Source: an uncultured Chloroflexia bacterium (GTDB lineage Bacteria > Chloroflexota > Anaerolineae > CG2-30-64-16). Taken from it: a stretch of 64,000 nucleotides of DNA. Numbering within the stretch: the first letter of the stretch is position 1; each line of letters begins with the position of its first letter. The notes under the pieces were generated by a model. The model ran no database searches, was not told the origin of the DNA, and saw only the letters and a program-made list of their open reading frames with translations. Shown here in pieces: positions 3,237-22,898 of this stretch. The stretch lies in contig CAVZDU010000001.1 of NCBI GenBank assembly GCA_963774265.1, forward strand, positions 1,280,001 to 1,344,000, given 5' to 3'. The position numbers and the translations under genes were made by a program.

Positions 3237-5401
3237 TGCTCACCTCCGACGCCCGCAAAGACCGCAAGGGGCACTTCCATGAAGAGCGGGCGCCTGGTGC
3301 CTTCGACGACTTCTGCGTCCGGGATGCCTTCCTCCCGGAACAGCCGGCGGATGAGCGCGGCGCAGGTCTTTGAGCCGCAGGAGCCCATGCCCGCACGCGT
3401 GACCGTCTTGATCTCGTTGACATCGCGGTAGCCGCGGCGGATCAGCTCGCGAATCTCGCCGGCGGTGACCCGCTCGCACCTGCAGACCACTACGTCGTCG
3501 GTCATGCGCTCGACATAATGGTCCATCGGCTCGGCGACCCACTGCTCTTGCACCTGGATGCCGGCGATGCGCTTGGCGATCTCCTTCGGCGCGGCCACCT
3601 GTACCAGGATGGTGCGATCATTGGCCTTGGCCGTCCTGACCCTTGTGACTTCGACGTTGCCCAGCGTTTGGCCCTCCACATCGAGCACCGTGACGTGATC
3701 GCCAACCTGGATGGTCTCGCGCAAGAACTCGTAGGGGATGGTGACGGTGGGCCGTTCGGTGTTCTTCTTGTAGTCTACGAGCGTGATGGCCAGGCCGGGG
3801 CAGATGGTGACGCACTTCTCGCAGCCGATGCAGCGATCCACGATCGCGCGATCCTGGATCGAGCGATCCTTTGGATTGCGATCCAAAGAATCGTTGCCCA
3901 ACTGCTCGGCGATGAACTGCGGCACAGCGCGGATGTCGTTCTCGTCGATGTGGATCATGCCCTGCGAGCACACCGACGTGCATGGGTTGCAGGGGATTTC
4001 CTGCCGGCAGTGGAACACCGGGAAGACGCCGCTTTCCTCGAGGGGGATGACCTCGGGCGTCGTCTGGCCGGGCTTGGAGCGGAGGATCTCAGCGGTGCGG
4101 TACCAATCGGGCGGGATTTCGCCGACGTCCTGGCCCATCTCACGCGCGATCTCGAGCCCCTTGATCTTGCCGGAGAACATGGCAGCCGACGCCTCAGCGA
4201 TTTCCTCCGCGTCGCCTGCGGCAAACGCGTTGAGGCCGAACTCCTGCGCCTTGGCATAGAACTCATCGACGGGGTCTAATCCGACCGCGATGAGCACCGT
4301 GTCGCATGCGAACGACTTCTCGGTGCCCGGGATGGGCCGGAATTTGTTGTCGACCTGCGCGATCGTGACGGATTCGACACTCTCCGTGCCGTTGGCACTG
4401 AGGATAGTGTGGGAGGTGTAGATGGGGACGCCCATGCGGTGGAGCTTGTCCTTGTGGACTTTGTAACCGCCGCACTCGGGCAGTGCCTCCACGAGGCCCA
4501 CCACCTGGATGCCGGCCTGCAGCGCGTGGTACCCGGCGATCAGGCCGACATTGCCGCCACCTACGATGAACAGACGCTCGGCTGCGGTCACCATGTCACG
4601 GTTGACCAGTGTCTGGAACGCGCCCGCGCCATAGACGCCCGGCAACGTGTTGCCCTTGAAAGCGAGCGACTTCTCTCTCGCACCGGCGGCAACGAGGAGC
4701 ACCTCCGGCTTGATCAGCACATAGCGGCCGCCCCCTTGCAGGACGCCGACCTTGTGATCGCTGAACACGGCCAGGGCTGTGCTGTTGAGCCAGACCTCGA
4801 CATAGGGGCGGCCGCCAGGGTCCGCCCCTACAGCTCGCACCTGCTGTTCGAGCTTGGTGGCGATATCGATGCCGCGCGTGCCCGCGTAGACAGCGTTGAT
4901 GGACCCAAAGAAGCGATGCGTTTGCAGGACGAGCTTGCCGCCGAGGCGGTCCTTGTCGTCAATCAGGAGACAGTGGATGCCGCGTTGGCCCAGTTGAATG
5001 GCCGCGGACATGCCCGCGGGCCCGCCGCCGATGATCAGCACAGGGACTTCGATGTCTTTGATCGCGGCCATCGGGGGCGGCGCTTCGACCTTCGGCAGTT
5101 CGGGCAGGGCATTGACCGGCTCGACCCGCATGCCGGCCCGGACCGGCTCCATGCAGGATTTCACGGGCATGCCATCGGCCAGGACGAGACACTGCGCGGA
5201 CTGGCCGTTGGCGCAGAAGATACCCTGCGGCGAGCCATCCTTGGGATGGTGCCCGAAAATGCGGATGCCGTTGGCGAAGAGGGCGGAGGCGATGGTCTCG
5301 CCTGCGAGCGCTGCAATCTCGTGCCCTTGCCAGTAGAAAGTCACTGAAGGGCGGGGTGCGGCGGCCAGGATGGGGTGTGATGAGATACGATACTCGACCA
5401 T
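3233..5401 (-). CDS. multidomain Fe-S/flavin oxidoreductase alpha subunit (2Fe-2S + FAD/NAD-binding + 2x4Fe-4S ferredoxin + BFD-like 2Fe-2S)
   Basis: GETIASAL..FCANGQSAQC, GGGPAG, GGGNVG, CNPCTSVC, CIGCEKCVTICP, CRCE..GMGSCGSKTC; ATG at 5401 with AAGGAG RBS; overlaps the beta subunit start. Confidence 0.85.
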   Translation of the reverse strand: MVEYRISSHPILAAAPRPSVTFYWQGHEIAALAGETIASALFANGIRIFGHHPKDGSPQGIFCANGQSAQCLVLADGMPVKSCMEPVRAGMRVEPVNALPELPKVEAPPPMAAIKDIEVPVLIIGGGPAGMSAAIQLGQRGIHCLLIDDKDRLGGKLVLQTHRFFGSINAVYAGTRGIDIATKLEQQVRAVGADPGGRPYVEVWLNSTALAVFSDHKVGVLQGGGRYVLIKPEVLLVAAGAREKSLAFKGNTLPGVYGAGAFQTLVNRDMVTAAERLFIVGGGNVGLIAGYHALQAGIQVVGLVEALPECGGYKVHKDKLHRMGVPIYTSHTILSANGTESVESVTIAQVDNKFRPIPGTEKSFACDTVLIAVGLDPVDEFYAKAQEFGLNAFAAGDAEEIAEASAAMFSGKIKGLEIAREMGQDVGEIPPDWYRTAEILRSKPGQTTPEVIPLEESGVFPVFHCRQEIPCNPCTSVCSQGMIHIDENDIRAVPQFIAEQLGNDSLDRNPKDRSIQDRAIVDRCIGCEKCVTICPGLAITLVDYKKNTERPTVTIPYEFLRETIQVGDHVTVLDVEGQTLGNVEVTRVRTAKANDRTILVQVAAPKEIAKRIAGIQVQEQWVAEPMDHYVERMTDDVVVCRCERVTAGEIRELIRRGYRDVNEIKTVTRAGMGSCGSKTCAALIRRLFREEGIPDAEVVEGTRRPLFMEVPLAVFAGVGGEQ
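3833..3895. repeat. family C hairpin array (GCGATCC-n-GGATCG), in frame in the ferredoxin domain
   Basis: gcgatccacgatcgc gcgatcctggatcga gcgatcctttggattgcgatccaaagaatcg; encodes DSLDRNPKDRSIQDRAIVDR. Confidence 0.75.
4802..4831 (-). repeat. family A REP (GTAGGGGCG..CGCCCCTA), in frame
   Basis: gtaggggcggaccctggcggccgccccta = VGADPGGRPY. Confidence 0.8.
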
Positions 5402-5497
5402 GAGTTCTCCTTTGAACCAAAAGGTACAAGAGTTGTATACCACTCCCGGCTGAGGTCGTCTATGAGATTGCGCAGATTCACACGGCGAACAACGTCG

Positions 5498-5506
5498 TGC
5501 TATACT
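5498..5506 (+). promoter_or_regulatory. extended -10 promoter, probably leaderless transcript
   Basis: TGcTATACT followed by 7 nt then ATG 5514; no SD. Confidence 0.55.
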
Positions 5507-5513
5507 CGGCCGC

Positions 5514-8500
5514 ATGAAAATCGTCGCGGACCTTCACATCCATTCTCATTTTTCCCGAGCGACCAGCAAGAGCCTGACCTTCGAGCACCTGACCCGTTGG
5601 GCGCAGCTCAAAGGTGTAACTGTGGTCGGGACGGGCGACATCGCACATCCCGGTTGGCTCGCGGAGATGCGCGATAAGCTTGTCCCCGCAGAAGACGGCC
5701 TGTATCGTCTGAAGGACGAACTCGTGCGGGACGTGCAACGCTCCGTGCCTCCCTCGTGTTATGCCCCGGTCCGTTTCATGCTCGGCGGCGAAATCAGCAA
5801 TATCTACAAGAAGGCCGATCGCACCCGCAAGGTGCACAACGTTGTCTTCGCGCCGAGACTTGACGCGGTGGCGCAACTCCAGGCGCGGTTGGAGAAGATC
5901 GGCAACATCCGCTCGGACGGGCGGCCGATCCTGGGCCTGGATTCGAGGGAATTGCTGGAAACGTTGTTGGATGTCGATTCGGCGTGCCAACTCATCCCTG
6001 CGCACATCTGGACGCCCTGGTTTTCGCTCCTTGGCTCCAAGTCGGGTTTCGACTCTGTTGACGAGTGCTACGGCGACTTGACATCTCATATCTTCGCGCT
6101 GGAAACCGGCCTGTCTTCTGACCCGCCGATGAACTGGCGGGTGTCACAACTGGACCGCTACACCCTGGTCTCGAATTCGGACGCGCATTCGCCCGAGAAG
6201 CTGGCGCGCGAGGCGACGCTGTTCGACACGGAGCTATCCTATGCGGCGTTGTTTGCCGCACTCAAAGTGGGCGATCCAGGGGACGGCGTCGCCGTCCCGT
6301 TGACGTTCCAGGGCACCGTCGAATTCTTCCCCGAAGAGGGCAAGTACCACCTGGACGGTCACCGCGCCTGTGGCGTTGTCTGGGAACCGCGGACCACAAT
6401 CGCACACGGCGGCGTATGCCCGGTCTGCGGGAAGGAAGTGACGATTGGGGTCATGCATCGCGTGGAGGAATTGGCGGACCGGCCCGTTGGCGGGCGGCCC
6501 CCTAGCACCCCTCCCTTCGTCAGCCTGATCCCACTGCCGGAGGTGATCGGCCAGGCGCTGGGCGTGGGCCCGGGTTCGGGCCGGGTGGAGCAGGAGTACA
6601 CGAAGTTGCTTGGTCGACTGGGCCCGGAGTTGTTCATCCTGCGAGATGCTGATCTGAAGGATATTGCCGCCACCGGTGGAGAGCGTTTAGCCCAGGGGCT
6701 CGACCGCATGCGCCGCGGAGAGGTGGATGCTCAAGGCGGTTATGATGGCGAGTATGGCGTGATCCACCTGTTCACCACACAGCGCGGCGGAGCTGTTGCA
6801 GCGAGCGGCCAGAGTGGGTTGTTTGCAGAGTCCGGGGCGGAGGATTCACTACAAGGACACAAAGAGCACAGGGAGCACAAAGAGCCACTTCAGACAGGTC
6901 CGTATGACGAGACCGGGGGGGAACCTGGGCGGGCGACGGACGGCGGGGGAGCGGAACAGTGGGGCGCGGCGAGTGAGCGATCCGAAGGATCGAGCGATCC
7001 AGAGGGATCGAGCGATCCCTTTGGATCGGGGCAGGCGTCTTTCTTTGATCTGGATGGGGCGTTAGAACCCGAAGCCCCGCAATCGCAGAGCGCGAGTTTC
7101 ACCATCCCGGCGGCCGCATTGCTCGGCGGGTTGAATGAAGCCCAACGCGAGGCGGTCCGCTGCGTCGACCGCTCGTTGATCATCTCGGCCGGTCCGGGGA
7201 CGGGCAAGACCCGGACCCTGACACATCGTATCGCTTACCTGGTTCTCAATCAGGGCGTGGCGCCCAGCTCCATCCTCGCGATCACATTCACGAACAAGGC
7301 TTGTGAGGAGATGGGCGAGCGGCTGAGCGCGCTGCTGGGCCCGCGGTCTGCAGAGATCACGGTGAAAACATTCCACGCGTTTGCGGCCGCGCTTTTGCGC
7401 GAGTATGGCGCGCAGATCGGGCTCGATCCTGCCTTCGCGATCTGCACCGAAGATGACCGCGGACTCCTCCTGCGCACCGCGTGCCCTGCGCTCTCTCAGG
7501 CCGAAGTGCAGGCCGCCCTGGGCGCCATCAGCGCGGCCAAGAACCGGCTGGAGGGCCCGCCGGGAGATGAGGCGGAAGACGGGCTCGGTAAGGTCTATGG
7601 GGCCTACCAGGCTGCGCTGGCCGGCAGCCACGCGCTGGACTTCGACGATCTCATCTTCCAGGCCGTCACGCTGCTGGAAACGCGCGAGGAGGTCCGGACT
7701 GCGCTGCATGACCGGTACCGCTGGATATCGGTCGACGAGTACCAGGATGTGAATGCAGCCCAGGTCCGCTTCCTGCGGTTGCTTTCGGACGGCGGTGCCA
7801 ACCTCTGTGTCATCGGCGACCCCGACCAGGCTATCTACGGCTTTCGCGGCGCGGATCGCAGCTACTTCTTGTCGTTTACGGCTGATTATCCCGGGTCAAC
7901 CCGTCTTTATCTCACCGAGAACTATCGCTCGACACAAGCGATCCTTGATGCGGCGCTGCAGGTGATCGGCGCGACCGGTGTAGGGGGCGACCTGCGTGTC
8001 GCCCCAGGGGGCATCGCCCGGTCGCCCCTACGCGCCGTTCAGACGCTCGCTGACTTTGCGGGGGAGGTGAAGCTTGACGTCTACCACGCGCCCACGGATC
8101 GTGCTGAGGCTGAGTACGTGGTGCACCAAATCGAGCAGATGATTGGCGGAACAAGCTACTTTTCGCTCGATTCAGGCCGGCTGGCCGGCGATGTCTCCTT
8201 CCAGGCGCACTCCTTCGCGGATTTCGCAGTGCTCTATCGATTGAGCGCCCAGAGCCGGCTCCTCATCGAGGCTCTCGAGCGCTCCGGCATGCCGTACCAG
8301 ACGATCGGGCAGACGCCGTTGGCGGGTTATGCGGATGTGCGGGAGGTCCTGGCGGCCTTGTGGTTTGCCTACCAGACGACGGTCCCAGATGCCGGTTTCC
8401 CAGGTGCTGGATTCCCAGGTGCCCGGCACTTCAGCGATCCAAGGATCGCAAGTGCCGGGCACCCACTCAAGGGGCGCCTACTCAAGGTGACCAGGCTGCT

Positions 8501-9035
8501 CGCGGAGATCGGCCCGAGGCCGCCTGTGGTCCGCCTCGTCGAGCGCCTGGCCCAGGTCCTGGGCGTCGGCCGCGATGGGGCGGCCAGCCGGATGGAGCAA
8601 CTGGCCCGGCTCGCGGGCCCGTTCGGAGATCGCCTGGGCGATTTTCTCGAGGCGATGGCGTTGCATCGGGAAACCGATGCCTACGACCCGCGCGCGGACC
8701 GGGTGACCTTGATGACGCTGCACGCCGCGAAGGGCCTGGAGTTCCCGGTGGTGTTTGTGGTGGGGTGCGAGGAGGGGCTGCTGCCCTATTCCCGCAGGGA
8801 TGAGGCGCCCGATGTGGATGAGGAGCGCCGGCTTTTCTACGTGGGCATGACCCGCGCCCAGCAGAAACTGGTGCTGTGCCATGCCCGGCGCCGGATGCTA
8901 TTCGGACAGACGACGGAGAACGCGCCGTCGCGTTTCGTGGGTGATATCGAGTCGGCGCTGAAGGCGGTGCAGGAGATTGGGGAACGGCGGCGCAGCGTGA
9001 GAGAGTCTGAGTCGCGTCAACTGGCTCTCTTCTAG
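5514..9035 (+). CDS. endonuclease Q (PHP-fold)-UvrD/PcrA-like helicase fusion
   Basis: ADLHIHSHFSRATS, PAHIWTPW, SNSDAHS, GKYH..C..CPVCGK; then AGPGTGKT, VDEYQD, IGDPDQAIYGFRGA, TLHAAKGLEF, EERRLFYVGMTRA. Confidence 0.9.
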   Translation: MKIVADLHIHSHFSRATSKSLTFEHLTRWAQLKGVTVVGTGDIAHPGWLAEMRDKLVPAEDGLYRLKDELVRDVQRSVPPSCYAPVRFMLGGEISNIYKKADRTRKVHNVVFAPRLDAVAQLQARLEKIGNIRSDGRPILGLDSRELLETLLDVDSACQLIPAHIWTPWFSLLGSKSGFDSVDECYGDLTSHIFALETGLSSDPPMNWRVSQLDRYTLVSNSDAHSPEKLAREATLFDTELSYAALFAALKVGDPGDGVAVPLTFQGTVEFFPEEGKYHLDGHRACGVVWEPRTTIAHGGVCPVCGKEVTIGVMHRVEELADRPVGGRPPSTPPFVSLIPLPEVIGQALGVGPGSGRVEQEYTKLLGRLGPELFILRDADLKDIAATGGERLAQGLDRMRRGEVDAQGGYDGEYGVIHLFTTQRGGAVAASGQSGLFAESGAEDSLQGHKEHREHKEPLQTGPYDETGGEPGRATDGGGAEQWGAASERSEGSSDPEGSSDPFGSGQASFFDLDGALEPEAPQSQSASFTIPAAALLGGLNEAQREAVRCVDRSLIISAGPGTGKTRTLTHRIAYLVLNQGVAPSSILAITFTNKACEEMGERLSALLGPRSAEITVKTFHAFAAALLREYGAQIGLDPAFAICTEDDRGLLLRTACPALSQAEVQAALGAISAAKNRLEGPPGDEAEDGLGKVYGAYQAALAGSHALDFDDLIFQAVTLLETREEVRTALHDRYRWISVDEYQDVNAAQVRFLRLLSDGGANLCVIGDPDQAIYGFRGADRSYFLSFTADYPGSTRLYLTENYRSTQAILDAALQVIGATGVGGDLRVAPGGIARSPLRAVQTLADFAGEVKLDVYHAPTDRAEAEYVVHQIEQMIGGTSYFSLDSGRLAGDVSFQAHSFADFAVLYRLSAQSRLLIEALERSGMPYQTIGQTPLAGYADVREVLAALWFAYQTTVPDAGFPGAGFPGARHFSDPRIASAGHPLKGRLLKVTRLLAEIGPRPPVVRLVERLAQVLGVGRDGAASRMEQLARLAGPFGDRLGDFLEAMALHRETDAYDPRADRVTLMTLHAAKGLEFPVVFVVGCEEGLLPYSRRDEAPDVDEERRLFYVGMTRAQQKLVLCHARRRMLFGQTTENAPSRFVGDIESALKAVQEIGERRRSVRESESRQLALF
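6847..6884 (+). repeat. 9-mer CACAAAGAG-type repeat (family E), in frame; related copy at 13561-13580
   Basis: acaaggacacaaagagcacagggagcacaaagag = QGHKEHREHKE; intergenic caccacaaaggacacaaaga. Confidence 0.55.
6975..7028. repeat. family C hairpin triplet, in frame in the EndoQ-UvrD linker
   Basis: gagcgatccgaaggatc gagcgatccagagggatc gagcgatccctttggatc. Confidence 0.8.
7968..8031 (+). repeat. family A REP, in frame in the helicase domain
   Basis: gtagggggcgacctgcgtgtcgcccc..ggtcgcccctac = GATGVGGDLRVAPGGIARSPL. Confidence 0.88.
8417..8463. repeat. family B palindrome with nested family C hairpin, in frame
   Basis: aggtgcccggcacttca-gcgatccaaggatcgc-aagtgccgggcacc = GARHFSDPRIASAGHP. Confidence 0.85.
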
Positions 9036-9039
9036 TAAG

Positions 9040-9088
9040 AGGTGCCCCGCACTGGCGATCCTGCGGATCGTTAAAGTGCCGGGCACTT
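9040..9088. repeat. family B+C composite palindrome, intergenic
   Basis: aggtgccccgcactg-gcgatcctgcggatcgt-taaagtgccgggcactt. Confidence 0.85.
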
Positions 9089-9164
9089 GGCGTGCCATGG
9101 CGCCATCTCACCAGGATTCAGCTACAATCTCTCTATGCCGAACCCACTCACCATGTACGGCAAA

Positions 9165-9237
9165 GTAAGGGCGACCGGTGTAGGGGCGACCGGGCGATGC
9201 TGCGATCCAGGGATCGCTGCATCGTTGTCGCCCCTAC
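9165..9237 (+). repeat. family A REP with nested family C hairpin, intergenic
   Basis: gtaagggcgaccggt gtaggggcgaccgggcgatgct-gcgatccagggatcgc-tgcatcgttgtcgcccctac. Confidence 0.85.
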
Positions 9238-9254
9238 ACGCTAAGGAGATCGAC

Positions 9255-9935
9255 ATGCTTTCGATTGCGGCAACCGATGAATGGCGCAACGCCCATCCCG
9301 GAGCAACCATAGGTTTGCTGGAGCTGGCGGGCGTGGAAAAGGCTCAGTCGCGATCCGGCTTGGAGGGGCGAAAACGAGAAACGGAAGCGAAGTTGAGAGA
9401 ACGCTATCGGGGCTTCACGCGGCAGGACTTTCTGGCGCTGCCCGTGATGGCAGCCTACGAACAATACTATAAACGCTTCAACAAGACGTATCATGTCCAG
9501 CTCCAGGTTGAGTCCATCGTGCTGAAAGGCAGGAACCTGCCTGACGTGTCTCCCCTGGTCGATGCCAACTTCACCGCTGAGGTGGAGACCCTGATCCTGA
9601 CGGCCGGACATGATGTCACAAAGTTGCGTGGGGCAGTCTCCATGGACGTGTCCTTCAAGGACGACACCATGACGCTCATGAACGGCGCCGCCAAAGTCAT
9701 CTATGCGGGCGATATGGTCATGAGGGATGCCGGCGGCATCTGTTGTTCGATCATCTACGGGCAGGACAATCGGTCTCCCATCTCTATGGAGACTTCTCAA
9801 GCCCTGTATGTGGCTTATGCCCCTGCTGGTGTTCCGGCGGAACTCGTGGATGCTCAATTGCGGAAAATCGAGGAAAACGTCCGGCTATTCTCACCTACTG
9901 TCGTCGTCGAGCAACTCCGTCTCCTAAAGGCGTAG
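9255..9935 (+). CDS. B3/B4 (PheT editing-like) domain protein
   Basis: LPDVSPLVDANF, TAGHD, GDMVMRD..GIC motifs; AAGGAG RBS before ATG 9255. Confidence 0.75.
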   Translation: MLSIAATDEWRNAHPGATIGLLELAGVEKAQSRSGLEGRKRETEAKLRERYRGFTRQDFLALPVMAAYEQYYKRFNKTYHVQLQVESIVLKGRNLPDVSPLVDANFTAEVETLILTAGHDVTKLRGAVSMDVSFKDDTMTLMNGAAKVIYAGDMVMRDAGGICCSIIYGQDNRSPISMETSQALYVAYAPAGVPAELVDAQLRKIEENVRLFSPTVVVEQLRLLKA

Positions 9936-10020
9936 GCGGCCTGACAACGAGGGCGTCGCGCCGGCGGTCTGCTCGCCGGCGACCTGCTCCTGCTCATCGG
10001 TGTTCTCATCATGGTCGCCT

Positions 10021-10254
10021 TCACGCGTGACTCTTCCAACTGTGCGCCACGAGCGGGAGAATCGGAACGATCGACTTCTTGCGCGAGAGCACGCCACCCA
10101 CGATACCCCGACGTGCGGCGACGACGTCTGTAGGGGGCGAACGACGATGCGCAGCATCGCCGTGTCGTCCCTACCCGGCATAGGCTACCGCCGAAACGAT
10201 CGGGTCGGTGTCCGGGTTCTTGTGGCCGACAACAAAGATCTTGCGTTCGCTCAT
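10021..10254 (-). pseudogene. ppaC: collapsed family II Mn-dependent inorganic pyrophosphatase remnant
   Basis: N-terminal MSERKIFVVGHKNPDTDPIVSAVAYA, then a REP, then C-terminal GGVLSRKKSIVP; whole catalytic middle missing. Confidence 0.8.
10130..10174. repeat. family A REP at the ppaC deletion junction
   Basis: gtagggggcgaacgacgatgcgcagcatcgccgtgtcgtccctac. Confidence 0.85.
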
Positions 10255-10358
10255 AGGTCCCAAGCATCTCCATTTCAGATTTGACAAGCGAATCGTGAAA
10301 ATGGCCCGAAGCTTGACCACAGGCGAATCGTAAGGCGTGGAGACTCTCTTTATCCCAG

Positions 10359-10407
10359 AGGTGCCCGGCACTTGCGATCCTTCGGATCGTTAAAGTGTCG
10401 GGCACCT
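10359..10407. repeat. family B+C composite palindrome just downstream of nuoN (possible terminator role)
   Basis: aggtgcccggcactt-gcgatccttcggatcgt-taaagtgtcgggcacct. Confidence 0.85.
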
Positions 10408-10421: not shown

Positions 10422-11978
10422 TTAGCGCAGGGCCAGCGTTCCCAGTGTGCTCACGGCCTGCTGGATGGCCTGCATCCAGGGGAACTGCCAGAGGCCCAGC
10501 ACCAGTGTGGCTGCAACGGCGATGATGACCGTGGCCCAGACAGGCCAGCCCGGCTGGGGCACCTCTCCCACAGGGATGGTTCCCAAGGCTTCGGCCGGCC
10601 GCGCGCCGGCCATGAACATGGTCACGGTGACCCGCAGGTAGTAGTACGCGGCGATCGCGCTGTTCAGCACGGCGATGATGGCCAGCCAGGCGAGGTTTGC
10701 CTGCACCGCCGCGCCGAAGACGTAGAGCTTGCCGAAGAAGCCTGCGAGCGGTGGGATGCCGGTCAGCGCGAACATGAGGATCGCCATGAGCACGGCCATC
10801 CCCGGCTGGCGGCTCGACAGCCCCGTGATCCGTTCGAGGGACACGTCATTCTCATCCCGGCGCTGCACCGCCAGCAGGACCGCGAACGCGCCCAGGTTCA
10901 TAAAGGTGTAGGCCAGCAGGTAGTAGAGCGCGGCCTGCGCAGCCTGGCTGGTGCCGGCAGCCAGGGCGACGAGGACGTAGCCGGCGTGTGCGATGCTGGA
11001 GTAGGCCAGCATGCGCTTGAGGCTGGTCTGGCGCAGCGCGGCCAAGTTGCCGAGGGTCATGGTGAGCACGGCCAGGGCGGCCAAGACGAGCAATAGGGGG
11101 CGACCCGGCGATGGGGCGACACGCAGGTCGCCCCCTACGCTGGCCAGGACCCGGATGAGGGAAGTGAAGGCGGCGGTCTTGGTAGCCACGGACATGAATG
11201 CGGTCACGGAGGTGGGCGCACCCTGGTACACGTCGGGCGTCCATTGGTGGAAGGGGACCAGCGCCACCTTGAAGCCGTAGCCCACCAGCAGCAGGCCCAC
11301 CCCGAGGGGCAGCAGCGGCGCGTAGGGGGCGACCTGTGTGTCGCCCCCTACCCCGGTCGCCCCTACCCCGGTCGCGAGCCCCTGGCTGATCTGCGCCAGG
11401 TTGGTCGAGCCCGTCGCACCGTAGATCAGCGCGATGCCGTACAGGAAGAAGCCGCTGGCAAACGCACCCAGCAGAAAGTACTTCAGCGATGCCTCAGCCG
11501 AACGCGCATCCCGCCGCGCAAACCCCGTCAGGATATACAGCGCCAGCGAGAAGATCTCCAGCCCCAGGAAGATCACCAGGAAGTCGTTGCCCTGCGCCAT
11601 CGCGATCATCCCCGCGCTCGCCAGCAGGATCAGTGCGTAATAGGGTCCGGGCCGCCGGGTGAAGTCCGCGGTGCGTTCCAGCGCGAGGAGGATGGCCAGG
11701 GCCGCGGCGATGAGGATCGCGGCCGCGGCGAAAATGCCGAGCCCATCCGCCAGTGCCATGCCGCCCACGATTGAAGATTGCAGATTGAAGATTTGGCCGG
11801 GCCACTGGGAGATCGTGGCCGCCAGGCTGCCCACCACGGCCAGGAGGCTCCCCCAGGCCAAGCCACGCTTGCCCGCAGGAGGCAGCACCAGGTCGGCCAG
11901 CAGCACCAGCAGGCTCGCCGCCACCAGGATGATCTGCGGTAGGATGGCCAGTAGATTGAATGTCGGTATCGTAATCAC
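10422..11978 (-). CDS. nuoN: NADH-quinone oxidoreductase subunit N (operon 1)
   Basis: EASLKYF, FKVALVPFHQWTPDVYQGAPT, KRMLAYSSIAHAGY, GIPPLAGFFGK; three in-frame repeat inserts. Confidence 0.95.
   Translation of the reverse strand: MITIPTFNLLAILPQIILVAASLLVLLADLVLPPAGKRGLAWGSLLAVVGSLAATISQWPGQIFNLQSSIVGGMALADGLGIFAAAAILIAAALAILLALERTADFTRRPGPYYALILLASAGMIAMAQGNDFLVIFLGLEIFSLALYILTGFARRDARSAEASLKYFLLGAFASGFFLYGIALIYGATGSTNLAQISQGLATGVGATGVGGDTQVAPYAPLLPLGVGLLLVGYGFKVALVPFHQWTPDVYQGAPTSVTAFMSVATKTAAFTSLIRVLASVGGDLRVAPSPGRPLLLVLAALAVLTMTLGNLAALRQTSLKRMLAYSSIAHAGYVLVALAAGTSQAAQAALYYLLAYTFMNLGAFAVLLAVQRRDENDVSLERITGLSSRQPGMAVLMAILMFALTGIPPLAGFFGKLYVFGAAVQANLAWLAIIAVLNSAIAAYYYLRVTVTMFMAGARPAEALGTIPVGEVPQPGWPVWATVIIAVAATLVLGLWQFPWMQAIQQAVSTLGTLALR
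11094..11138 (-). repeat. family A REP, in frame in NuoN
   Basis: Encodes VGGDLRVAPSPGRPL. Confidence 0.88.
11322..11375 (-). repeat. family A REP with duplicated arm, in frame in NuoN
   Basis: Encodes ATGVGATGVGGDTQVAPY. Confidence 0.88.
11769..11792. repeat. heptamer (GATTGAA/TTCAATC) array, in frame in NuoN
   Basis: gattgaagattgcagattgaagat = IFNLQSSI on the minus strand. Confidence 0.85.
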
Positions 11979-11997: not shown

Positions 11998-12026
11998 GCA
12001 GGGGCGACACGGAGGTCGCCCCCTAC
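11998..12026 (-). repeat. family A REP whose GTAG provides the nuoM stop codon
   Basis: Minus strand aaG TAG ggggcgacctccgtgtcgcccctgc. Confidence 0.85.
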
Positions 12027-15928: not shown

Positions 15929-15981
15929 AGGTCGATACTCTCTTTTGTTAGTGCTCTCAGGTGCCCGCTCTCAGGTACCTC

Positions 15982-16013
15982 AGGTGCCCGGCACTTGCCA
16001 AGTGCCGGGCACC
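15982..16013. repeat. family B palindrome between nuoJ and nuoK
   Basis: aggtgcccggcacttgccaagtgccgggcacct. Confidence 0.85.
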
Positions 16014-16027
16014 TCTTATTGCGCCTC

Positions 16028-16543: not shown

Positions 16544-16551
16544 GCCCACCT

Positions 16552-17022: not shown

Positions 17023-17032
17023 TCAGATACCT

Positions 17033-18056
17033 CTACACCAGCGTCACAATCACCGCCGTGATGGCCAGGTAGACCAGCGCGACCGGGAACAGGAACGTCC
17101 AGCAGAACCTGAGGAGCTGGTCGTAGCGCGGGCGGGGCACGCTGGCGCTCACCCAGATGAACAGGAACACCATGACCATGATCTTGGCCACGAAGTAGCC
17201 CAGGCCCAGGATCGGGAATTGCTCGACGAACGGGCCGCGCCAGCCACCGAAAAAGACGGACACGGCCACCGCGCTCGCGCCCAGGATGTGCAGGTATTCG
17301 GTCATGTAGAAGAGCGCGAACTTGATGCTGCCGTACTCGGTCGCGTAGCCCGAGACAAGCTCGTTCTCGGTCTCCGGGAAGTCGAACGGCTTGCGGGTGG
17401 TCTCGGCCAGCATGGTGATGAAGTAGAAGGGGAAGGCCAGCCATATCCATAGCCACAGCCACCAGGGCCGGTTCATCGCGACGATCCGGTTCAGGCTCAG
17501 CGTGCCGAAGCCGTCCGCGGTGCCCAGGGTCGTGGTCAGGATCAACGCGATGAGCAGGATGCCCATGGGCAGCTCGTATGAAAGCATCTGGGCGCTGGTG
17601 CGCAGCGCGCCGAGCAGGGAGTATTTGTTGTTGCTGGCGTAGCCGCCCAGGATGATGCCGTAGATGCCGATGGCGGCCGCGGCCAGGACCCACAGGAAGC
17701 CGATGTTGACGTCGGCCACCTGGAGGGGAATCTGCCGGCCGAACAGATTGAGCGTGGGGCCGACCGGAACCACCGCAAAAATGAGCAGCGCGGGCGCGAT
17801 GGCCAGCGCGGGCGCAACGACGTAGAGCAATTTGTCAGCGCGCGGGGATGATTTCCTCTTTGAAGATCATCTTGAGTGCGTCCGCGATCGGGTGGCCCAG
17901 GCCGAATTTCCACGCGCGGTTCGGGCCGATGCGCAGTTGGAAGCGCCCAATCATCTTGCGCTCGAACAGGGTGAGGTAGGCAAAGCCGGTCAGCAGCACT
18001 ACCACGAGCACGAGCGATGTGATTGCCGGGATGAGAATGAGGCCGATCCAGTCCAT
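17033..18056 (-). CDS. nuoH: NADH-quinone oxidoreductase subunit H (operon 1); frameshift near 17838-17844
   Basis: ERK..RIGPNR, ADALKMIFKE in one frame; SNNKYSLLGALR, AETTRKPFD in the next; restoring GC in the gcgcgc run gives PARADKLLY. Confidence 0.9.
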
Positions 18057-18060
18057 GCCG

Positions 18061-20792
18061 TTACTCCAGCGAAGCGTGATCGAGCGCGATGGTGACGGAG
18101 ACCGGTTCTCCGCGGCCGGCGCCGAGAGTCTCGGCCGGGAGGCCGGTCAGGCCGTAGGGCATCCAGGCAGCGCCGGCCGGCATTGCTGGATCCGCGCGCA
18201 GTTCGACGGTGACGCTGGCCAGCGCGGAGGTGACGGTGGCCAGGGTGACGATTGAAGATTGAAGATTGACGATTGAAGATAGGTCGGCCGGGTTGAGCGC
18301 GATGAATGGCGCCGGGATCTTCGCCCGGACCTGCTCGGCCGCGTGCTGCATCAGCACCCCGCCGTCCCACAGGATGGGGCCGGCGATGAGATTGAAGGAT
18401 GAAGGTTGAAGGTTTGAAGGTTGAAGGTCATTCTCACCAATCTTCAATCTGGAATCTTCAATCTTCAATCCGTACCCTTCCCCCGCCCACTGCCGCCCCT
18501 GGTCGGTGAGCGCGTCCCAGCGCAGAGCTGCGTAGACGGGGACGGCTTTGGTGATTTCTTCGAGCACGGACTGGGCGCTGGCGTAAGTCCAGGGTTTGGC
18601 CGCGAAACCGGTCTTGGCGGCCTGCGCGTGCTTCTTTCGCTTCCAGTCGGGGACCGCAGCGGCCCCCTGCGCTCCTGCGAGCGCGGGCGTTGGCGCCTCC
18701 ACGGCGTCGCGGCCCTGAGTCGCCATCCAACGCTCGGCCAATCGGGTCAGGATCGCCCAGCCGGGCAGCGCATCCCCCACCGGCTCAATGCCGGCCGGGC
18801 CGCGCTGGACGCGACGCTCGAGGTTGGTGTAGGTCCCATCGGACTCGGCCCAGGATGTCGCTGGCAGGACCACATGCGCGAGCCGGGCCGTCTTGGTCAG
18901 GAACAAGTCCTGAACCACCAGGAAGCCCAGCTTAGCCAGCGCCTCAGCCGCCCGCGCGGATGCGCCGGGGTCCGCCTCAATAACGTACAGCCCTTTCACG
19001 CCGCCTTCGAGCATCGCCGTGTAACTCAGTCCGGGCTCCGCGGGCGGCTGCACCCCCCACAGCTTGCCCAGCCGTTCGCGCACCGCGGCATCGCCCACCG
19101 GGAGCTGGCCGGGCAGGCTGTCGCTGACCACGCCCATGTCGCGCAGACCCTGGCCGTTGGGCTCATGGCCGATGTACGCGAGCTCACCGCGGCCGAGGAG
19201 CGCGGCGATGTTGTTCAGCGCGCTGACCGTCAGCCGCCCGCGCTCCCCGCGCGCCGCGTCAGGGCCGTAGATGAACAGCGGCGATTTGGCGGCGACGAGA
19301 AGATCGGCGGCGCGCCGAATGAAAGATTCAACGTAGGGGGCGACCTGCGTGTCGCCCCTGCGCCCCCCGGCGCCCGCCATCTGGCTGACCTGTTGCGGCC
19401 TGCCGCCCCGCGCATGTGGATCCGCTTTCGGCGGCGCGACTTTGGCCGCCTGCAGCAGCGACGCGATCTCGTTCAGCGCTGCCGCTTCACCCCCTGGCTG
19501 CACCGCGATGGTCGCGCCCTTGCCGTCATCGGTGTACCGCGCGAGCTCGATGCGCCGCGGATTGAGGATGATCAGCTTCGCGCTCTTGCGCCGGACCGCC
19601 CGCTTGATGTGCAGATCGAGCACCGGCGTCGCCTCGCTCGGATCAAACCCCACCAGCACTATCACATCGCTCTCGCCGATGTCGGCGATCGCCGAGAGCC
19701 CGGTCGGTGCTGCCCGCACACCCGCCCCTTCCGAGAAGTCGACGTTGTTCGTGCCGACCAGGCCGCGGAAGAACTTCTGGAACAGATATGCGGCCTCGTT
19801 CGAGATCCGGCCGCCCGCGATGCCCCCGATGGGAGCACCCCCGGTGGGGGCACCCCCATGGGGGCAATAGCCCTGAAGCCCTCCACCACAGCCGCCAGCG
19901 CCTCATCCCAACTGGCCGGCCGCAGTGCACCGTTCTCCCGGATCATCGGCGTCTTGAGCCGCTCCGGGTGGTCGACGTGCTGGTGCAGGAAGCGCCCCTT
20001 ATCGCAGATCCACTCGTCGTTGACCGCCATGTTCTCGCGGGCTACGATGCGGCGCAACGTATGCACCCGCTCGTCCAGGCGCAGGTTGCAGCCCACGGGG
20101 CAGTGGGTGCAGATGCTCGGTGTCTTGCGCAGCTCCCAGGGGCGGTACTTGAAGCGGGCGACCCGGTTGGTCAGCGCGCCGACCGGGCAGATGTCGATGA
20201 TGCTGCCCGAGGTCCTGGCGTCCACCGGCTTGCCGGGAAACACATCGATGAGCGTCTCGCCCCCGCGCTCGAATAGCCCGATCTGCGGCTTATCTTCCCA
20301 CTCTTCGAGGTAGCGGATGCAACGCCAGCACAAGATGCAGCGCTCCTGGTCCAGCATGATCAGATCGCTGATGGGGTAGTGCTTCTTCTTGCGCCGCTTG
20401 GCCTCGATGAACTTGCTCGCACCCGGCCCGTATTCCATCGTGTTGTCTTGCAGCGGGCACTCGCCGCCCTTATCACAGATCGGGCAGTCGAGCGGGTGGT
20501 TGATCAGGATGAAGCCGAGCACCGCCTCGCGCGCCTCCCGCACCGCCTCACTGTTCGTCACGACGACCATGCCCTCGCTCACGCGCACCGTGCAGGCTGT
20601 ATCCAGCCGGCTCCCGCGCGGCCCGGGGAACTCCACCAGGCACATCCGACACGCGCCCAGCGGGTCCAGCTTCGGGTGCGAGCAGAAAATCGGAATCTCA
20701 ACCCCCGCCGCCTTCGCCGCGTCGATCACCAGCGCCCCCGCAGGGACCTGGACCTTGATGTCGTCGATGGTCACATTGACCAGATCTGCCAT
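18061..20792 (-). CDS. nuoG: NADH-quinone oxidoreductase subunit G; frameshift near 19830-19866
   Basis: CRMCLVE, HPLDCPICDKGGECPLQD, CILCWRCIR, CTHCPVGC (N7); continues IGGIAGGRISNEAAY after a -1 shift; DGTYTNLERRVQ. Confidence 0.9.
18250..18280. repeat. heptamer array, in frame in NuoG
   Basis: gattgaagattgaagattgacgattgaagat = SSIVNLQSSI. Confidence 0.85.
18390..18470. repeat. inverted pair of heptamer arrays, in frame in NuoG
   Basis: Encodes GLKIEDSRLKIGENDLQPSNLQPSSFNL. Confidence 0.85.
19333..19361. repeat. family A REP, in frame in NuoG
   Basis: gtagggggcgacctgcgtgtcgcccctgc = RRGDTQVAPY on the minus strand. Confidence 0.88.
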
Positions 20793-20807
20793 ACGTTTCC
20801 CCTTGGC

Positions 20808-20886
20808 GATTACAGATTGAAAATTGAAAATTGAAGATTGAAGATGACGAGCCCGATCTTCAATCTGTAATCTTCAATCTTCCATC
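20808..20886. repeat. inverted heptamer arrays between nuoEF and nuoG
   Basis: (GATTGAA-like)x5, spacer, (TCTTCAA-like)x4. Confidence 0.88.
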
Positions 20887-20888
20887 CG

Positions 20889-22898
20889 CTACCGTTTCAT
20901 CGTCGGCGCGTTATACTGCTCCTCGAGCGGCAGCGCCGGCTCCGTCACCCCGGACGGCGCACCCGCGTCGGGCCGGTACGTGGGCCGGATCGGGATCACA
21001 AACTGCCTGGACGCCGCGGCGATCGCCGCCTCGAACTCGGGGCGGAACTTCGCCAGGTTGCTCTGCAGGCCCCAGACCGCCGCGTACGAGAACGGGCAGA
21101 AGCTCTTCCCCGCGATCATGTCCGCGATGTAGAGCATCAGAGCGATGTCGTCCGTGCGGCCCTCGCCCCGCTCCACGCGCTCCAGGATGTCCTCCAGCCA
21201 GCCCGTCCCCTCCCGGCACGGCGTGCACTTGCCGCAGCTTTCCTCGCGGTAGAACGCGATCGTCCGCCGCGCCACCTCGACCAGGCTCTGGTTCTGGCCG
21301 ATCACGATCACCGCGGCCGCGCCGAGGCTCGATCCGGCTTTCGTGATGCTGTCGAAGTCCATCGGCGTGTCCAGCTGGCTCTCGTCCAGCATCTGCATTG
21401 ACAGCCCGCCGGGGATGATCGCCTTCAGGCCCCCCGCATCCTCGGTCAGCCCGCCCGCCCAGTCATAAACCAGCTCGCGTAGCGTCACCCCGTGCGGCAG
21501 CTCGTACAGCCCGGGCTTCTGGACCTGGCCGCTGATGCCGTAAATGCGGAAACCGGTGCTGCTGGGCGGGCCCCACTGCCGGTACCAGTCCGCCCCGTTC
21601 CTCAGCACGTGCGGCACATTGGCGATCGTCTCCACGTTGTTCACGATCGTCGGCTTGCCGTACAGCCCCGAGACCGCCGGGAAGGGCGGCTTGAGCCGCG
21701 GATGGCCCCGGTAGCCTTCCAGCGAGGACAGTTGCGCCGTCTCCTCGCCGCACTCGTACACGCCCGCGCCGCGGTGGACCACCACCTGTAGGGGGCGACC
21801 ACGATGCGCCGCATCGCCGTGTCGCCCCAGGCGACCGGACGACGGGGCGACACGCAGGTCGCCCCCTACGTCCCGCCCTAGGTCGCCCCCTACGTCCCGC
21901 CCTAGGGCGCCCAGGATCCCCGCCGCCTCAGCCTCCGCGATCGCGCCCTCCAGCCGCTGCGCCGCAAAATAATACTCCCCGCGCACATAGATGAACGCCC
22001 GCTCGGCCTCGATCGCATAGCATGTCAGGATGATCCCCTCCAGCAGCTGGTGCGGGTCATACTCCATAATCATGCGGTCCTTGAACGTGCCCGGCTCCGA
22101 TTCATCCGCGTTGACCACCAGGTAGCGCGGAGTGACCCCCGCGGGAAGAAAGCCCCACTTGACCCCCGCCGAAAACCCCACGCCCCCGCGCCCCCGCACA
22201 TTCGCCGCCTTCATCTCCTCGATCACCTGGCCGGGCGTCTTACCGCCGAGAACCGCCTGCGCGGTCTCATACCCGCCCCCCGCGCGATACACGGCCAGCG
22301 TGTGCGAATCCGGTTTATCCACATTGGCGAGCAGGAAATTCGTGTCCGGCCGGCCGCCGTGGCGGAACGGACCGGTCGGCCAGCGCTCCGTCGTATCGAA
22401 GCCGTGGCCCGACACAATCAGCGCCAGCGCCTCGTCGACCTTCTCCGGCGTGTCCAGCTCCTCGAAATAGCGGATCCGGCCGGTCTGCCGCTCCGTGGCC
22501 ATGAACATCGGCGCGGTTGCACACGCCCCCAGGCACTCCACATGGCCCAGCGTGAACCGGCCATCCCGCGTTGTCTGGCCGAAGCGGACCCCCACCCGCT
22601 CCTCCAGCGCCCGGGTCAGCTGCCCCGCGCCCCGCAGCATGCACGGCACATTGTCGCACACCTCAATCGTGACTTCGCCCGGCTCGCGGTGCACGTGATA
22701 CATATGGTAGAAGCTGGCGAACTCGCCCACCTCCGCCGCGTCCAGCCCGAACAGCGCGCCCACCTCCGCGAGCACCTCCGCCGGCAGCCACCCGCGCTCC
22801 ACCTGCGCCACATACAGCGCCGGCCCCAGCGCGGACCGGGGGACGGGATAACGGGCCTGCAGGGCCCGAATTTCAGCAATAGCTCTATCGGAAAGCAC
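20889..22898 (-). CDS. nuoEF: fused NADH-quinone oxidoreductase subunits E and F
   Basis: NuoE: SFYHMY, CDNVPC, ECLGAC; NuoF: GRGGVGF, NADESEPGTFKDR, YECGEETA, ESCGKCTPCREG, SFCP; single ORF. Confidence 0.92.
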   Translation of the reverse strand: MLSDRAIAEIRALQARYPVPRSALGPALYVAQVERGWLPAEVLAEVGALFGLDAAEVGEFASFYHMYHVHREPGEVTIEVCDNVPCMLRGAGQLTRALEERVGVRFGQTTRDGRFTLGHVECLGACATAPMFMATERQTGRIRYFEELDTPEKVDEALALIVSGHGFDTTERWPTGPFRHGGRPDTNFLLANVDKPDSHTLAVYRAGGGYETAQAVLGGKTPGQVIEEMKAANVRGRGGVGFSAGVKWGFLPAGVTPRYLVVNADESEPGTFKDRMIMEYDPHQLLEGIILTCYAIEAERAFIYVRGEYYFAAQRLEGAIAEAEAAGILGALGRDVGGDLGRDVGGDLRVAPSSGRLGRHGDAAHRGRPLQVVVHRGAGVYECGEETAQLSSLEGYRGHPRLKPPFPAVSGLYGKPTIVNNVETIANVPHVLRNGADWYRQWGPPSSTGFRIYGISGQVQKPGLYELPHGVTLRELVYDWAGGLTEDAGGLKAIIPGGLSMQMLDESQLDTPMDFDSITKAGSSLGAAAVIVIGQNQSLVEVARRTIAFYREESCGKCTPCREGTGWLEDILERVERGEGRTDDIALMLYIADMIAGKSFCPFSYAAVWGLQSNLAKFRPEFEAAIAAASRQFVIPIRPTYRPDAGAPSGVTEPALPLEEQYNAPTMKR
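21788..21905 (-). repeat. long composite family A REP with 24-bp duplication, in frame in the NuoF part
   Basis: Encodes LGRDVGGDLGRDVGGDLRVAPSSGRLGRHGDAAHRGRPLQ. Confidence 0.9.

What the first reader, a model, noticed from the sequence alone, without database searches (positions are those of the whole stretch)
4802..21905. GTAGGGGCG-type REP palindromes inserted in frame into housekeeping and respiratory proteins
Seen: the element GTAGGGG(G)CGAC..GTCGCCCC(C)TAC occurs at 4802, 7980, 9180, 10130, 11094, 11322, 11998, 19333 and 21788, with a degenerate copy at 35158. Seven copies lie inside ORFs without breaking frame. Unrelated proteins (UvrD, NuoN twice, NuoG, NuoF) therefore share the peptides VGGDLRVAP / GDTQVAPY. 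The NuoF insert is about 39 aa, just before the HRGAGVYECGEE FMN/NADH motif. Established: REPs are normally extragenic; coding palindromes are known mainly as Rickettsia RPEs. Inference: an active REP system is writing new peptide loops into essential proteins of this lineage.
Basis: partly seen in the sequence, partly recalled or inferred. Interest (0 to 1): 0.85.

Follow-up and report, generated by a model that had tools for sequence, protein, structure and literature searches.

The report
REP hairpins translated inside respiratory genes
Small mobile DNA hairpins (REP elements) of an uncultured Chloroflexota bacterium sit in frame inside six sites of five genes, adding floppy loops to complex I and a repair helicase; this is real but is a kind of insertion already described in other bacteria.

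Summary
All nine hairpins GTAGGGG(G)CGAC..GTCGCCCC(C)TAC are at the stated places. Six lie in frame in real genes: a SoxA-like flavoprotein, PHP-UvrD, NuoN twice, NuoG and a NuoE-NuoF fusion. Three are intergenic, not in ORFs; one of them supplies the nuoM stop codon. Orthologues in the same genus and family lack the NuoF, NuoN, NuoG and flavoprotein inserts, so these are recent.

The elements are 'double-foot' GTAG REPs. Elsewhere in the genome an intact REP-associated tyrosine transposase (RAYT/TnpA_REP, with the motifs of subclass 2.4) is flanked by the same family. Beside it lies the only copy of the exact window subfamily found outside the window.

Intragenic GTAG REPs, including in UvrD-type helicases and NADH dehydrogenase subunits, were published in 2013, and REPs inside RAYT genes in 2018. 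This scan has already reported the same kind on at least 13 other genomes.

Less ordinary details:
- each subfamily clusters locally (6 of 7 copies within 13.9 kb);
- native loop codons are replaced rather than simply added to;
- one reading frame is strongly preferred;
- an in-frame GATTGAA heptamer family co-occurs.

Verdict: real, a new member of a known kind.

The parts
4802..4831 (-). 30-nt REP variant (GTAGGGGCGGACC..GGCCGCCCCTAT on the coding strand) in frame in a SoxA-like Fe-S flavoprotein gene (3233-5515, -). It reads VGADPGGRPY.
   Evidence: The G007 orthologue is 7 aa shorter at this point. RNA fold -22.4 kcal/mol.
7980..8031 (+). 52-nt composite REP in frame in PHP-UvrD (5514-9035, +). 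It reads VGGDLRVAPGGIARSPL.
   Evidence: The loop is hypervariable in the genus: G005 carries a different REP here, G004 a decayed one, and G001, G006 and G010 none.
9180..9237 (.). 58-nt long-form REP with an inner stem. It is probably intergenic or in the 5' UTR, 14 nt upstream of ATG 9252 of a B3_4-domain gene.
   Evidence: Fold -49.6 kcal/mol, z -7.3. The start site is inferred from AAGGAG + ATG. No orthologue was found in the syntenic loci.
10130..10174 (.). 45-nt long-form REP, intergenic between the B3_4 gene and the end of nuoN.
   Evidence: The overlapping ORF 9854-10405 has a codon score of -0.2 and no Pfam hit.
11094..11139 (-). 46-nt composite REP in frame in nuoN (10422-11978, -). 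It reads VGGDLRVAPSPGRPL, a net gain of 7 aa.
   Evidence: Absent in 4 of 4 aligned orthologues. Lies in the predicted inter-helix coil 282-292 (low-confidence model).
11322..11378 (-). 57-nt REP plus partial tandem copies, in frame in nuoN. It reads LATGVGATGVGGDTQVAPY, a net gain of 9 aa, and replaces 30 native nt.
   Evidence: One soil-run contig shows a form 21 nt shorter. Lies in the predicted coil 203-219.
11998..12026 (-). 29-nt REP between nuoM and nuoN. Its GTAG foot supplies the nuoM stop codon TAG (12023-12025).
   Evidence: read directly from the sequence. Fold -18.9 kcal/mol.
19333..19361 (-). 29-nt REP in frame in the C-terminal part of nuoG. It reads RRGDTQVAPY and lies in a variable linker about 13 aa longer than in 3 orthologues.
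21786..21908 (-). 123-nt cluster of 2-3 REP units plus a tandem partial copy, in frame in the nuoE-nuoF fusion (20889-22898, -). It replaces 33 native nt (NNIFGTGKKLK), a net gain of 30 aa.
   Evidence: Absent from 10 of 10 and 27 of 27 aligned orthologues. AF2 predicts coil for 331-367 with pLDDT below 50. Fold -91.3 kcal/mol.
35158..35184 (.). Degenerate REP-like palindrome, GTAGGGGTGA..TCGCCCCTAT.
   Evidence: No ORF of 100 aa or more with coding-like codon usage spans it. Not studied further.

Best explanation
These are 'double-foot' GTAG-type REP elements: short GC-rich hairpins with GTAG at one end and CTAC at the other. They belong to a REP-RAYT system of TnpA_REP subclass 2.4 (RAYT group 4).

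The cognate single-copy HUH/Y1 transposase gene lies elsewhere in the genome, at G000:C3:418686-419312. It is flanked by arrays of the same hairpin family and carries two copies in frame in its own linker.

Copies have entered the uvrD-nuo region as DNA, presumably as single-stranded hairpins handled by the RAYT. That step is inferred, not shown. Only copies that kept the reading frame, avoided the TAG-containing frame and landed in tolerant surface or inter-helix loops have survived. They are therefore translated as Gly/Pro/Asp-rich loops (VGGDLRVAP, GDTQVAPY).

Shown here:
- the anatomy of the elements;
- the link to a RAYT;
- absence from orthologues;
- the in-frame state;
- location in predicted loops.

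Inferred:
- mobilisation by the RAYT;
- translation of the inserts;
- that the inserts are neutral for the host proteins.
For: Element anatomy:
- GTAG foot, stem and loop, with the CTAC complement at the other end, at all nine sites.
- Stable folds of -19 to -91 kcal/mol.
- Subfamilies GGGGCGAC, GGGCGGAC and GGGCCGAC differ by compensatory changes on both arms.

Link to a RAYT:
- The RAYT ORF is 208 aa with MPNHFHG, WQRNYY and YIDENP. Its best NCBIfam hit is NF047646, REP-associated tyrosine transposase.
- Its flanks hold GTAGGGGGCGACCTGCGTGTCGCCCC at C3:419436, the only copy outside the window.
- More than 7,800 homologues were found, many named RayT by their source.

Absence from orthologues:
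- NuoF: 0 of 10 and 0 of 27 carry the insert.
- NuoN: 0 of 4.
- NuoG: 0 of 3.
- Flavoprotein: G007 lacks it.
- The REP family was found in only 4 of 21 related genomes, all of one genus.

Host genes are otherwise intact, with full Pfam architecture.

Published precedent:
- Intragenic GTAG REPs (PMC3733652).
- REPs within subclass 2.4 tnpA_REP genes (PMC6006769).
Against: - No transposition was observed.
- The family is low-copy: 31 hairpins genome-wide.
- Native codons are replaced rather than cleanly interrupted, for example 33 nt in NuoF and 30 nt in NuoN. The peel-and-paste model for IS200/IS605-type enzymes does not predict this.
- Each subfamily clusters within 14-26 kb. That fits local copying or gene conversion at least as well as transposition from a distant RAYT locus.
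- The NCBIfam score for the RAYT is below the curated cut-off, 57.9 against 80 bits.
- nuoG carries an apparent frameshift, and there is no evidence of expression.
Confidence: 0.8

Rival explanations
1. The copies spread mainly by short-range homology-driven copying, not by RAYT transposition. The route would be gene conversion or template switching between nearby hairpins at stalled forks or breaks. Each event overwrites a patch of native loop with a neighbouring REP.
For: - 6 of 7 copies of the exact subfamily lie within 13.9 kb, and 6 of 12 GGGCGGAC copies within 25.6 kb at C1:411-437 kb.
- Native codons are replaced.
- In UvrD, G000 has a pristine REP where G004 has a decayed REP-like stretch of almost equal length, differing by 1 aa. 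That fits a 'refresh' by conversion.
- REP arm ends partly resemble the native flanks, e.g. CGGCCCTGG against CGCCCCCTA in NuoN.
Against: - The NuoF, NuoN and NuoG orthologues show no REP remnant that could seed conversion.
- The microhomologies are short and in GC-rich DNA, so they may be chance. No control was run.
- The one distant copy sits exactly beside the RAYT gene, which points to the transposase.
Confidence: 0.25
2. The inserts are artefacts of a long-read metagenome assembly, such as chimeric or mis-polished sequence, and do not exist in the cells.
For: - The genome has 10 contigs but only 84% marker completeness.
- nuoG has a frameshift in a run of C5/G5 homopolymers.
Against: - All six inserts are multiples of 3 and keep long ORFs open.
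- They form a coherent family with compensatory stems and a cognate RAYT.
- Short-read contigs of a soil run cover the NuoN site with the REP left arm present. This is one contig at depth 3.6, and the run may not be independent of the source sample.
- Relatives assembled by others carry related REPs in frame in UvrD and in RAYT genes.
Confidence: 0.02
3. The hairpins are kept inside these genes because they do something useful. As mRNA structures they could tune translation or operon stoichiometry, or as peptide loops they could be selected in complex I. On this reading they are not tolerated junk.
For: - Very stable mRNA hairpins lie inside and between nuo genes.
- Each nuo intergenic gap also holds a heptamer palindrome, which G004 shares at the nuoF-nuoG gap.
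- There is a strong preference for one reading frame.
Against: - The inserts are absent from all close orthologues, which have the same operon.
- The sites are loops of variable length.
- The same peptides occur in unrelated proteins.
- The frame bias can be explained by purifying selection alone.
Confidence: 0.05

Closest known systems
GTAG-tagged REPs with intragenic copies (Di Nocera, De Gregorio & Rocco 2013, BMC Genomics 14:522, PMC3733652; passages and one supplement search read)
   Same: - GTAG foot, GC-rich stem-loop, dimers and clusters.
- RAYT ('REPtron') association.
- Several families in one genome.
- The TAG of the foot used as a stop codon.
- In-frame copies in known proteins, including UvrD/REP helicase and NADH dehydrogenase subunits.
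- Presence in Chloroflexi.
   Different: - This is a different lineage (an uncultured Anaerolineae genus) with different stem sequences.
- Copy number is low, but six in-frame sites fall within 17 kb.
- Native loop codons are replaced.
- I did not see a frame preference or per-subfamily local clustering discussed in the passages I read.
TnpA_REP subclass 2.4 / RAYT group 4 with 'double-foot' REPs inserted in the transposase gene itself (Quentin, Siguier, Chandler & Fichant 2018, BMC Genomics 19:475, PMC6006769; passages read)
   Same: - NH[IFV]H, WQ and YIxNNP-type motifs.
- REPs with 5' GTAG and 3' CTAC.
[quoted passage not shown]
   Different: Membership was judged from motifs and architecture only; I built no phylogeny. 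The NCBIfam RAYT model scores below its cut-off.
Rickettsia palindromic elements (RPE; cited in PMC3733652 as in-frame insertions in R. conorii)
   Same: Small palindromic repeats tolerated in frame in functional proteins.
   Different: Per PMC3733652, RPE-4 and RPE-6 are CGTC-tagged, and the paper found no dedicated transposase for CGTC repeats. RPE-1 is longer. The elements here are GTAG-tagged and linked to a RAYT. They work alike but are not members of that family.
REPINs (Bertels & Rainey 2011, PMC3116915; search listing and abstract only)
   Same: REP doublets in inverted orientation thought to be the mobile unit for RAYTs. The NuoF and UvrD inserts contain two or more units.
   Different: Most copies here are single double-foot hairpins or irregular composites, not regular doublets. 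They are intragenic and low-copy.

Membership tests
GTAG-type ('double-foot') REP | 5' GT[AG]G at the foot of a GC-rich stem-loop, with C[TC]AC at the 3' end | tested here: met
   Of the 9 copies, 7 have GTAG or CTAC on at least one side. Some feet are mutated (ATAG at 4802 and 11094; GCAG at 11998 and 19361).
GTAG-type ('double-foot') REP | Repeated family in the genome, with stem variants that keep pairing | tested here: met
   31 hairpins match GGG[GC][CG]GAC-N4-8-GTC[CG][GC]CCC. Three stem variants differ on both arms. Copy number is low compared with classical REPs.
GTAG-type ('double-foot') REP | A RAYT gene flanked by the same REP family (a REPtron) | tested here: met
   The C3:418686-419312 RAYT has REP arrays on both sides, including an exact copy of the window subfamily at C3:419436.
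GTAG-type ('double-foot') REP | Binding, cleavage or mobilisation by the RAYT | not testable with these tools
   Needs biochemistry or population sequencing.
TnpA_REP subclass 2.4 / RAYT group 4 | HuH motif NH[IFV]H, WQ..Y motif and YIxNNP-like C-terminal motif | tested here: met
   MPNHFHG, WQRNYYDH and YIDENP in the 208-aa ORF. Motif table from PMC6006769.
TnpA_REP subclass 2.4 / RAYT group 4 | [quoted passage not shown] | tested here: met
   - C3 RAYT: two hairpins, VGADLRVGPP and VRADLRVGPP.
- C1:1019459 RAYT: VETLHATSL.
- C10 RAYT: VGATLAVAP and others.
- All 5 relatives' RAYT loci that I could parse, out of 9 examined, have hairpins with stems of 8 or more in the linker.
TnpA_REP subclass 2.4 / RAYT group 4 | Curated family model score (NCBIfam NF047646, Pfam PF01797) | tested here: inconclusive
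   NF047646 scores 57.9 bits against a cut-off of 80, in two stretches split by the insert. PF01797 scores 20.7 against 23.
Rickettsia RPE | CGTC-tagged or longer RPE-1 type palindromes of Rickettsia | tested here: not met
   The elements here carry GTAG/CTAC feet. The RPE description is taken from PMC3733652. No sequence comparison with RPEs was run.

The most novel reading that the evidence does not exclude
In this lineage REP subfamilies do not scatter. Each spreads over only a few tens of kilobases, and it does so by overwriting patches of native loop sequence rather than by clean insertion.

The copies that survive use almost only the frame GTA|GGG. That is the same frame in which the hairpin is translated inside the RAYT gene's own linker. 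On this reading the REP has been shaped by long residence inside its transposase ORF to encode a harmless flexible linker, and is therefore pre-adapted to be written into other proteins. Local copying by conversion or template switching would be the main route.

I did not find the local-overwrite mode or the frame pre-adaptation stated in the passages I read of the 2013 and 2018 papers, nor with two peptide and term searches.
Probability: 0.3. Interest if true: 0.55.

Novelty: new member of a known kind. Interest (0 to 1): 0.3.

Why it matters
The case shows in an uncultured soil Anaerolineae lineage how selfish hairpin DNA lengthens loops of conserved enzymes without killing them. Here the enzymes are complex I subunits, a repair helicase and a flavoprotein.

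Practical value:
- Such inserts inflate protein lengths, split domain-model hits and can look like novel motifs. NuoF, NuoN and the RAYT itself are all split in HMM matches.
- Annotators and structure predictors should recognise the VGxDLRVxP, GDTQVxPY, VETLHATSL and IFNLQSSI peptides as translated repeats.

The local clustering, the codon replacement and the frame bias could inform how REPs actually move, which is still unsettled.

Tried and rejected
- **RNA evidence.** The look-up of sequencing runs listed no RNA holder, so expression and RNA-level removal are untested.
- **Read laying.** Four soil runs, held as contigs only, gave sparse and mostly distant cover. Only one contig bridges a REP site, the NuoN site. 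No listed contig spans the NuoF, NuoG or UvrD sites, so nothing follows for those.
- **Rfam.** No family reaches its gathering score in the window.
- **Bare 9-mer.** GTAGGGGCG is not enriched over shuffles. Genome-wide GTAGGGG is no commoner than my hand estimate from base composition (counts), so I dropped k-mer counts as a measure.
- **Codon-score gene caller.** My crude caller covers only 59% of the genome at the threshold used. The count 'in ORF' (17 of 31) includes copies near the N-termini of stop-to-stop ORFs that may be upstream of the true start. I therefore also give a Pfam-checked subset.
- **B3_4 gene start.** I looked for an orthologue to fix its start and found none in the syntenic loci.
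- **RAYT-internal REPs.** I first thought these might be new. Earlier scan notes pointed to Quentin et al. 2018, and the passages I read confirm it is published.
- **NuoN model.** The AlphaFold model is poor (mean pLDDT 48.9), so it gives only weak support for loop placement.
- **Window Y1 transposase.** The gene at 1414-1968 is IS200-type and is flanked by different GTAG hairpins. I rejected it as the cognate enzyme.
- **Horizontal import.** I rejected import of the whole operon from a REP-rich donor, because synteny and 70-90% identity to same-genus orthologues hold throughout.

Full report
**What the window is.** The window is G000:C1:1280001-1344000 of a 5.51 Mb, 10-contig genome. Public records of its closest NuoF relatives are titled as uncultured Anaerolineae/Chloroflexota MAGs. 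Genes in positions 1-26 kb, by Pfam:
- a SoxB/ThiO-like oxidase;
- a SoxA-like Fe-S flavoprotein (3233-5515, -);
- a PHP-UvrD fusion (5514-9035, +);
- a small B3_4-domain gene;
- a nuo operon on the minus strand: nuoN 10422-11978, nuoM, nuoL, K, J, I, H, nuoG in two overlapping frames (18061-19719 and 19662-20792), a nuoE-nuoF fusion (20889-22898), a nuoC-nuoD fusion, nuoB and nuoA.

**Checking the observation.**
- The basic unit is GTAGGGGGCGAC / 6-nt loop (CTGCGT or its complement) / GTCGCCCCCTAC.
- Longer forms carry an inner stem (CGATGC..GCATCG) or extra partial arms.
- As RNA they fold at -19 to -91 kcal/mol.
- The bare 9-mer is not enriched: 23 matches against 17.7 expected.
- The hairpin is enriched. 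The 22-nt core at up to 1 mismatch occurs 7 times in the genome, 6 of them between 7984 and 21865.
- GTAGGGGGCGAC occurs 10 times on both strands, 9 of them in the window.

**Which copies are coding.** Six copies lie in frame in real genes:

| Site | Host | Peptide |
|---|---|---|
| 4802 | flavoprotein | VGADPGGRPY |
| 7980 | UvrD | VGGDLRVAPGGIARSPL |
| 11094 | NuoN | VGGDLRVAPSPGRPL |
| 11322 | NuoN | VGATGVGGDTQVAPY |
| 19333 | NuoG | RRGDTQVAPY |
| 21788 | NuoE-F | about 41 REP-derived residues |

Three copies are not coding:
- Copy 9180 lies upstream of an AAGGAG-ATG start. This is inferred; I found no orthologue to confirm it.
- Copy 10130 lies in an ORF with non-coding codon usage.
- Copy 11998 lies between nuoM and nuoN, where its GTAG foot provides the nuoM stop codon.

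**Orthologue test.**
- NuoE-F: 10 of 10 orthologues from the same genus and family and 27 of 27 aligned Anaerolineae orthologues (29 loci fetched, 2 with ORFs under 550 aa dropped) have NNIFGTGKKLK where G000 has the insert.
- At the DNA level, 33 native nt are replaced by 123 nt.
- NuoN lacks both inserts in 4 of 4 orthologues.
- NuoG lacks its insert in 3 of 3.
- The flavoprotein lacks its insert in G007.
- The peptides therefore come with the palindrome, and the insertions are young.

UvrD is different. The loop is hypervariable. G005 carries another REP there (GTAGGGGCGACCGGCCGGTCGCCCC, read as VGATGRSPL). G004 has a decayed REP-like stretch of nearly the same length. G001, G006 and G010 have short loops without a REP. 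This loop is either a recurrent or an old REP site.

**Placement in the proteins.**
- Against solved structures, the NuoF insert falls between Thermus Nqo1 residues 167 and 171.
- The NuoN inserts fall in alignment gaps against NdhB and NuoN chains.
- An AlphaFold model of NuoE-F (mean pLDDT 62.7) gives coil with pLDDT below 50 for residues 331-367, between a helix and the strand leading to GAGVYECGEE.
- The NuoN model is poor (48.9) but puts all inserts in inter-helix coils.

**What the elements are.** Genome-wide there are 31 hairpins of the form GGG[GC][CG]GAC-loop-GTC[CG][GC]CCC, with three stem variants that differ on both arms.

At C3:418686-419312 lies a 208-aa ORF with MPNHFHG, WQRNYY and YIDENP.
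- Its best NCBIfam hit is 'REP-associated tyrosine transposase', below the cut-off because the match is split.
- It has more than 7,800 homologues, many called RayT by their source.
- It is flanked on both sides by REP arrays, including the only non-window copy of the exact window subfamily.
- It contains two hairpins in frame in its own linker.

Three more RAYTs of this type have their own REP families:
- C5:45826, with GTAGGGGCGAGTGTGGCGCC;
- C1:1019459, with GTAGAGACGTTGCATGCAACGTCTCTAC;
- C10:187910.

Of the 120 best homologues, 107 carry a VGADLRV-like motif in the linker. All 5 RAYT loci of relatives that my parser could read, out of 9 examined, have perfect hairpins there.

**Comparison with what is known.**
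- Di Nocera et al. 2013 (PMC3733652; passages and one supplement search) describe GTAG REPs in Chloroflexi among other phyla. They report REPtrons, TAG stop codons donated by the foot, and intragenic copies in UvrD/REP helicase, uvrA/B, recB, dnaE and NADH dehydrogenase subunits. [quoted passage not shown]
- Quentin et al. 2018 (PMC6006769; passages) define 'double-foot' REPs. [quoted passage not shown]
- This scan has reported the same kind on at least 13 other genomes. Its notes led me to the 2018 paper.

The finding is a new member of a known kind.

**Details that are less ordinary.**
1. *Local clustering by subfamily.* 6 of 7 GGGGCGAC/CTGCGT copies lie within 13.9 kb, and 6 of 12 GGGCGGAC copies within 25.6 kb at C1:411-437 kb. 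My rough bounds are 4e-12 and 1e-8. The 50-kb bin holding the start of the window has the most repeat hits of four families combined, 23, among 116 bins.
2. *Replacement of native codons* at the NuoF and NuoN sites.
3. *Frame bias.*
   - Of the 24 GGGG-type and GTAGAGACGT-type copies lying in spanning ORFs with coding-like codon usage, 20 are read in the frame GTA|GGG or GTA|GAG.
   - In a stricter subset, 11 of 13 use that frame. The subset is the six window sites plus seven sites that Pfam domains place well inside genes (16 of 20 host ORFs have domains; N-terminal and no-domain cases were dropped).
   - With two stop-free frames, 11 of 12 gives p about 0.003. Copies are not independent, so this is rough.
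   - It is the frame in which the hairpin is read inside the RAYT linker.
4. *The family is genus-restricted.* The pattern was found in 4 of 21 related genomes.

**Caveats.**
- nuoG is split by a frameshift near 19.86-19.90 kb. The site is 11 nt longer than in orthologues and lies in a run of C5/G5 mini-palindromes. A homopolymer error in a long-read assembly is likely but unproven.
- No RNA data exist.
- One soil contig carries the NuoN site with a form 21 nt shorter. It is weak evidence and possibly not independent.

**Second family.** (GATTGAA)n heptamer palindromes fill the nuoA-B, nuoCD-F and nuoF-G gaps.
- They are read in frame as IFNLQSSI-type or LKIEDxRLKI-type peptides in NuoN, NuoL and NuoG (twice), and apparently in NuoCD.
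- Orthologues lack the in-frame copies in NuoN, NuoL and NuoG.
- The family is abundant in 6 of 7 species of the genus.
- An earlier scan note, e1-726709, saw it in frame in another Chloroflexi gene.

Noticed in passing
window 18390-18470, 20803-20886, 22902-22988, 25377-25449; in frame at about 11769, 14079, 18243, 18390-18463, 24440: AT-rich heptamer (GATTGAA)n palindromes fill three nuo intergenic gaps. They are also translated in frame as IFNLQSSI or LKIEDSRLKI in NuoN, NuoL and NuoG (twice), and apparently in NuoCD. Same-genus orthologues lack the in-frame copies in NuoN, NuoL and NuoG, but G004 shares the nuoF-nuoG gap palindrome. There are 86 hits in G000 and about 190-200 each in G003, G004 and G005.
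   Followed up: partly
window 19850-19905 (nuoG): nuoG is split into two overlapping frames. The break lies in an extra 11-nt stretch of C5/G5 mini-palindromes (GCCCCCATGGGGGTGCCCCCACCGGGGGTG..) that is absent from 3 orthologues. It looks like a 12-nt in-frame insertion plus a 1-nt homopolymer error of the assembly, but a real frameshift is not excluded.
   Followed up: partly
window 1414-1968 (-): An IS200-type Y1 transposase (Pfam Y1_Tnp; NCBIfam IS200/IS605 above the cut-off) is flanked by a different kind of GTAG hairpin (GTAGCCCGGACGT.., GTAGCCTGGCGGC..). It is probably a separate element and not the enzyme for the REPs studied here.
   Followed up: partly
window 8417-8464, 9074, 10359-10407, 15982-16014, 29758, 48826: A third palindrome family, A[AG]GTGCC[CG]GGCAC[CT]T, has 85 hits in the genome, 9 of them in the window. 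It lies between nuoK and nuoJ and in frame in UvrD (GARHFSDPRIASAGHP) and other genes.
   Followed up: no
G000:C1:411855-437494 (outside the window): A second local cluster holds six GGGCGGAC-type REPs within 25.6 kb. Some lie inside a xanthine-dehydrogenase-type gene and upstream of or inside a glutamate-synthase-like gene.
   Followed up: partly
window 9252-9935: The B3_4-domain gene between uvrD and nuoN has no counterpart in the syntenic loci of the relatives examined. It may be a recent arrival in a REP-rich gap.
   Followed up: no
window 26074-33893 (+): A second, lower-GC set of nuo-like genes (a NuoH paralogue at 26492-27670 and following ORFs) lies head to head with the REP-rich operon. 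The genome has further NuoF paralogues. Redundancy might relax selection on the operon that carries the inserts.
   Followed up: no
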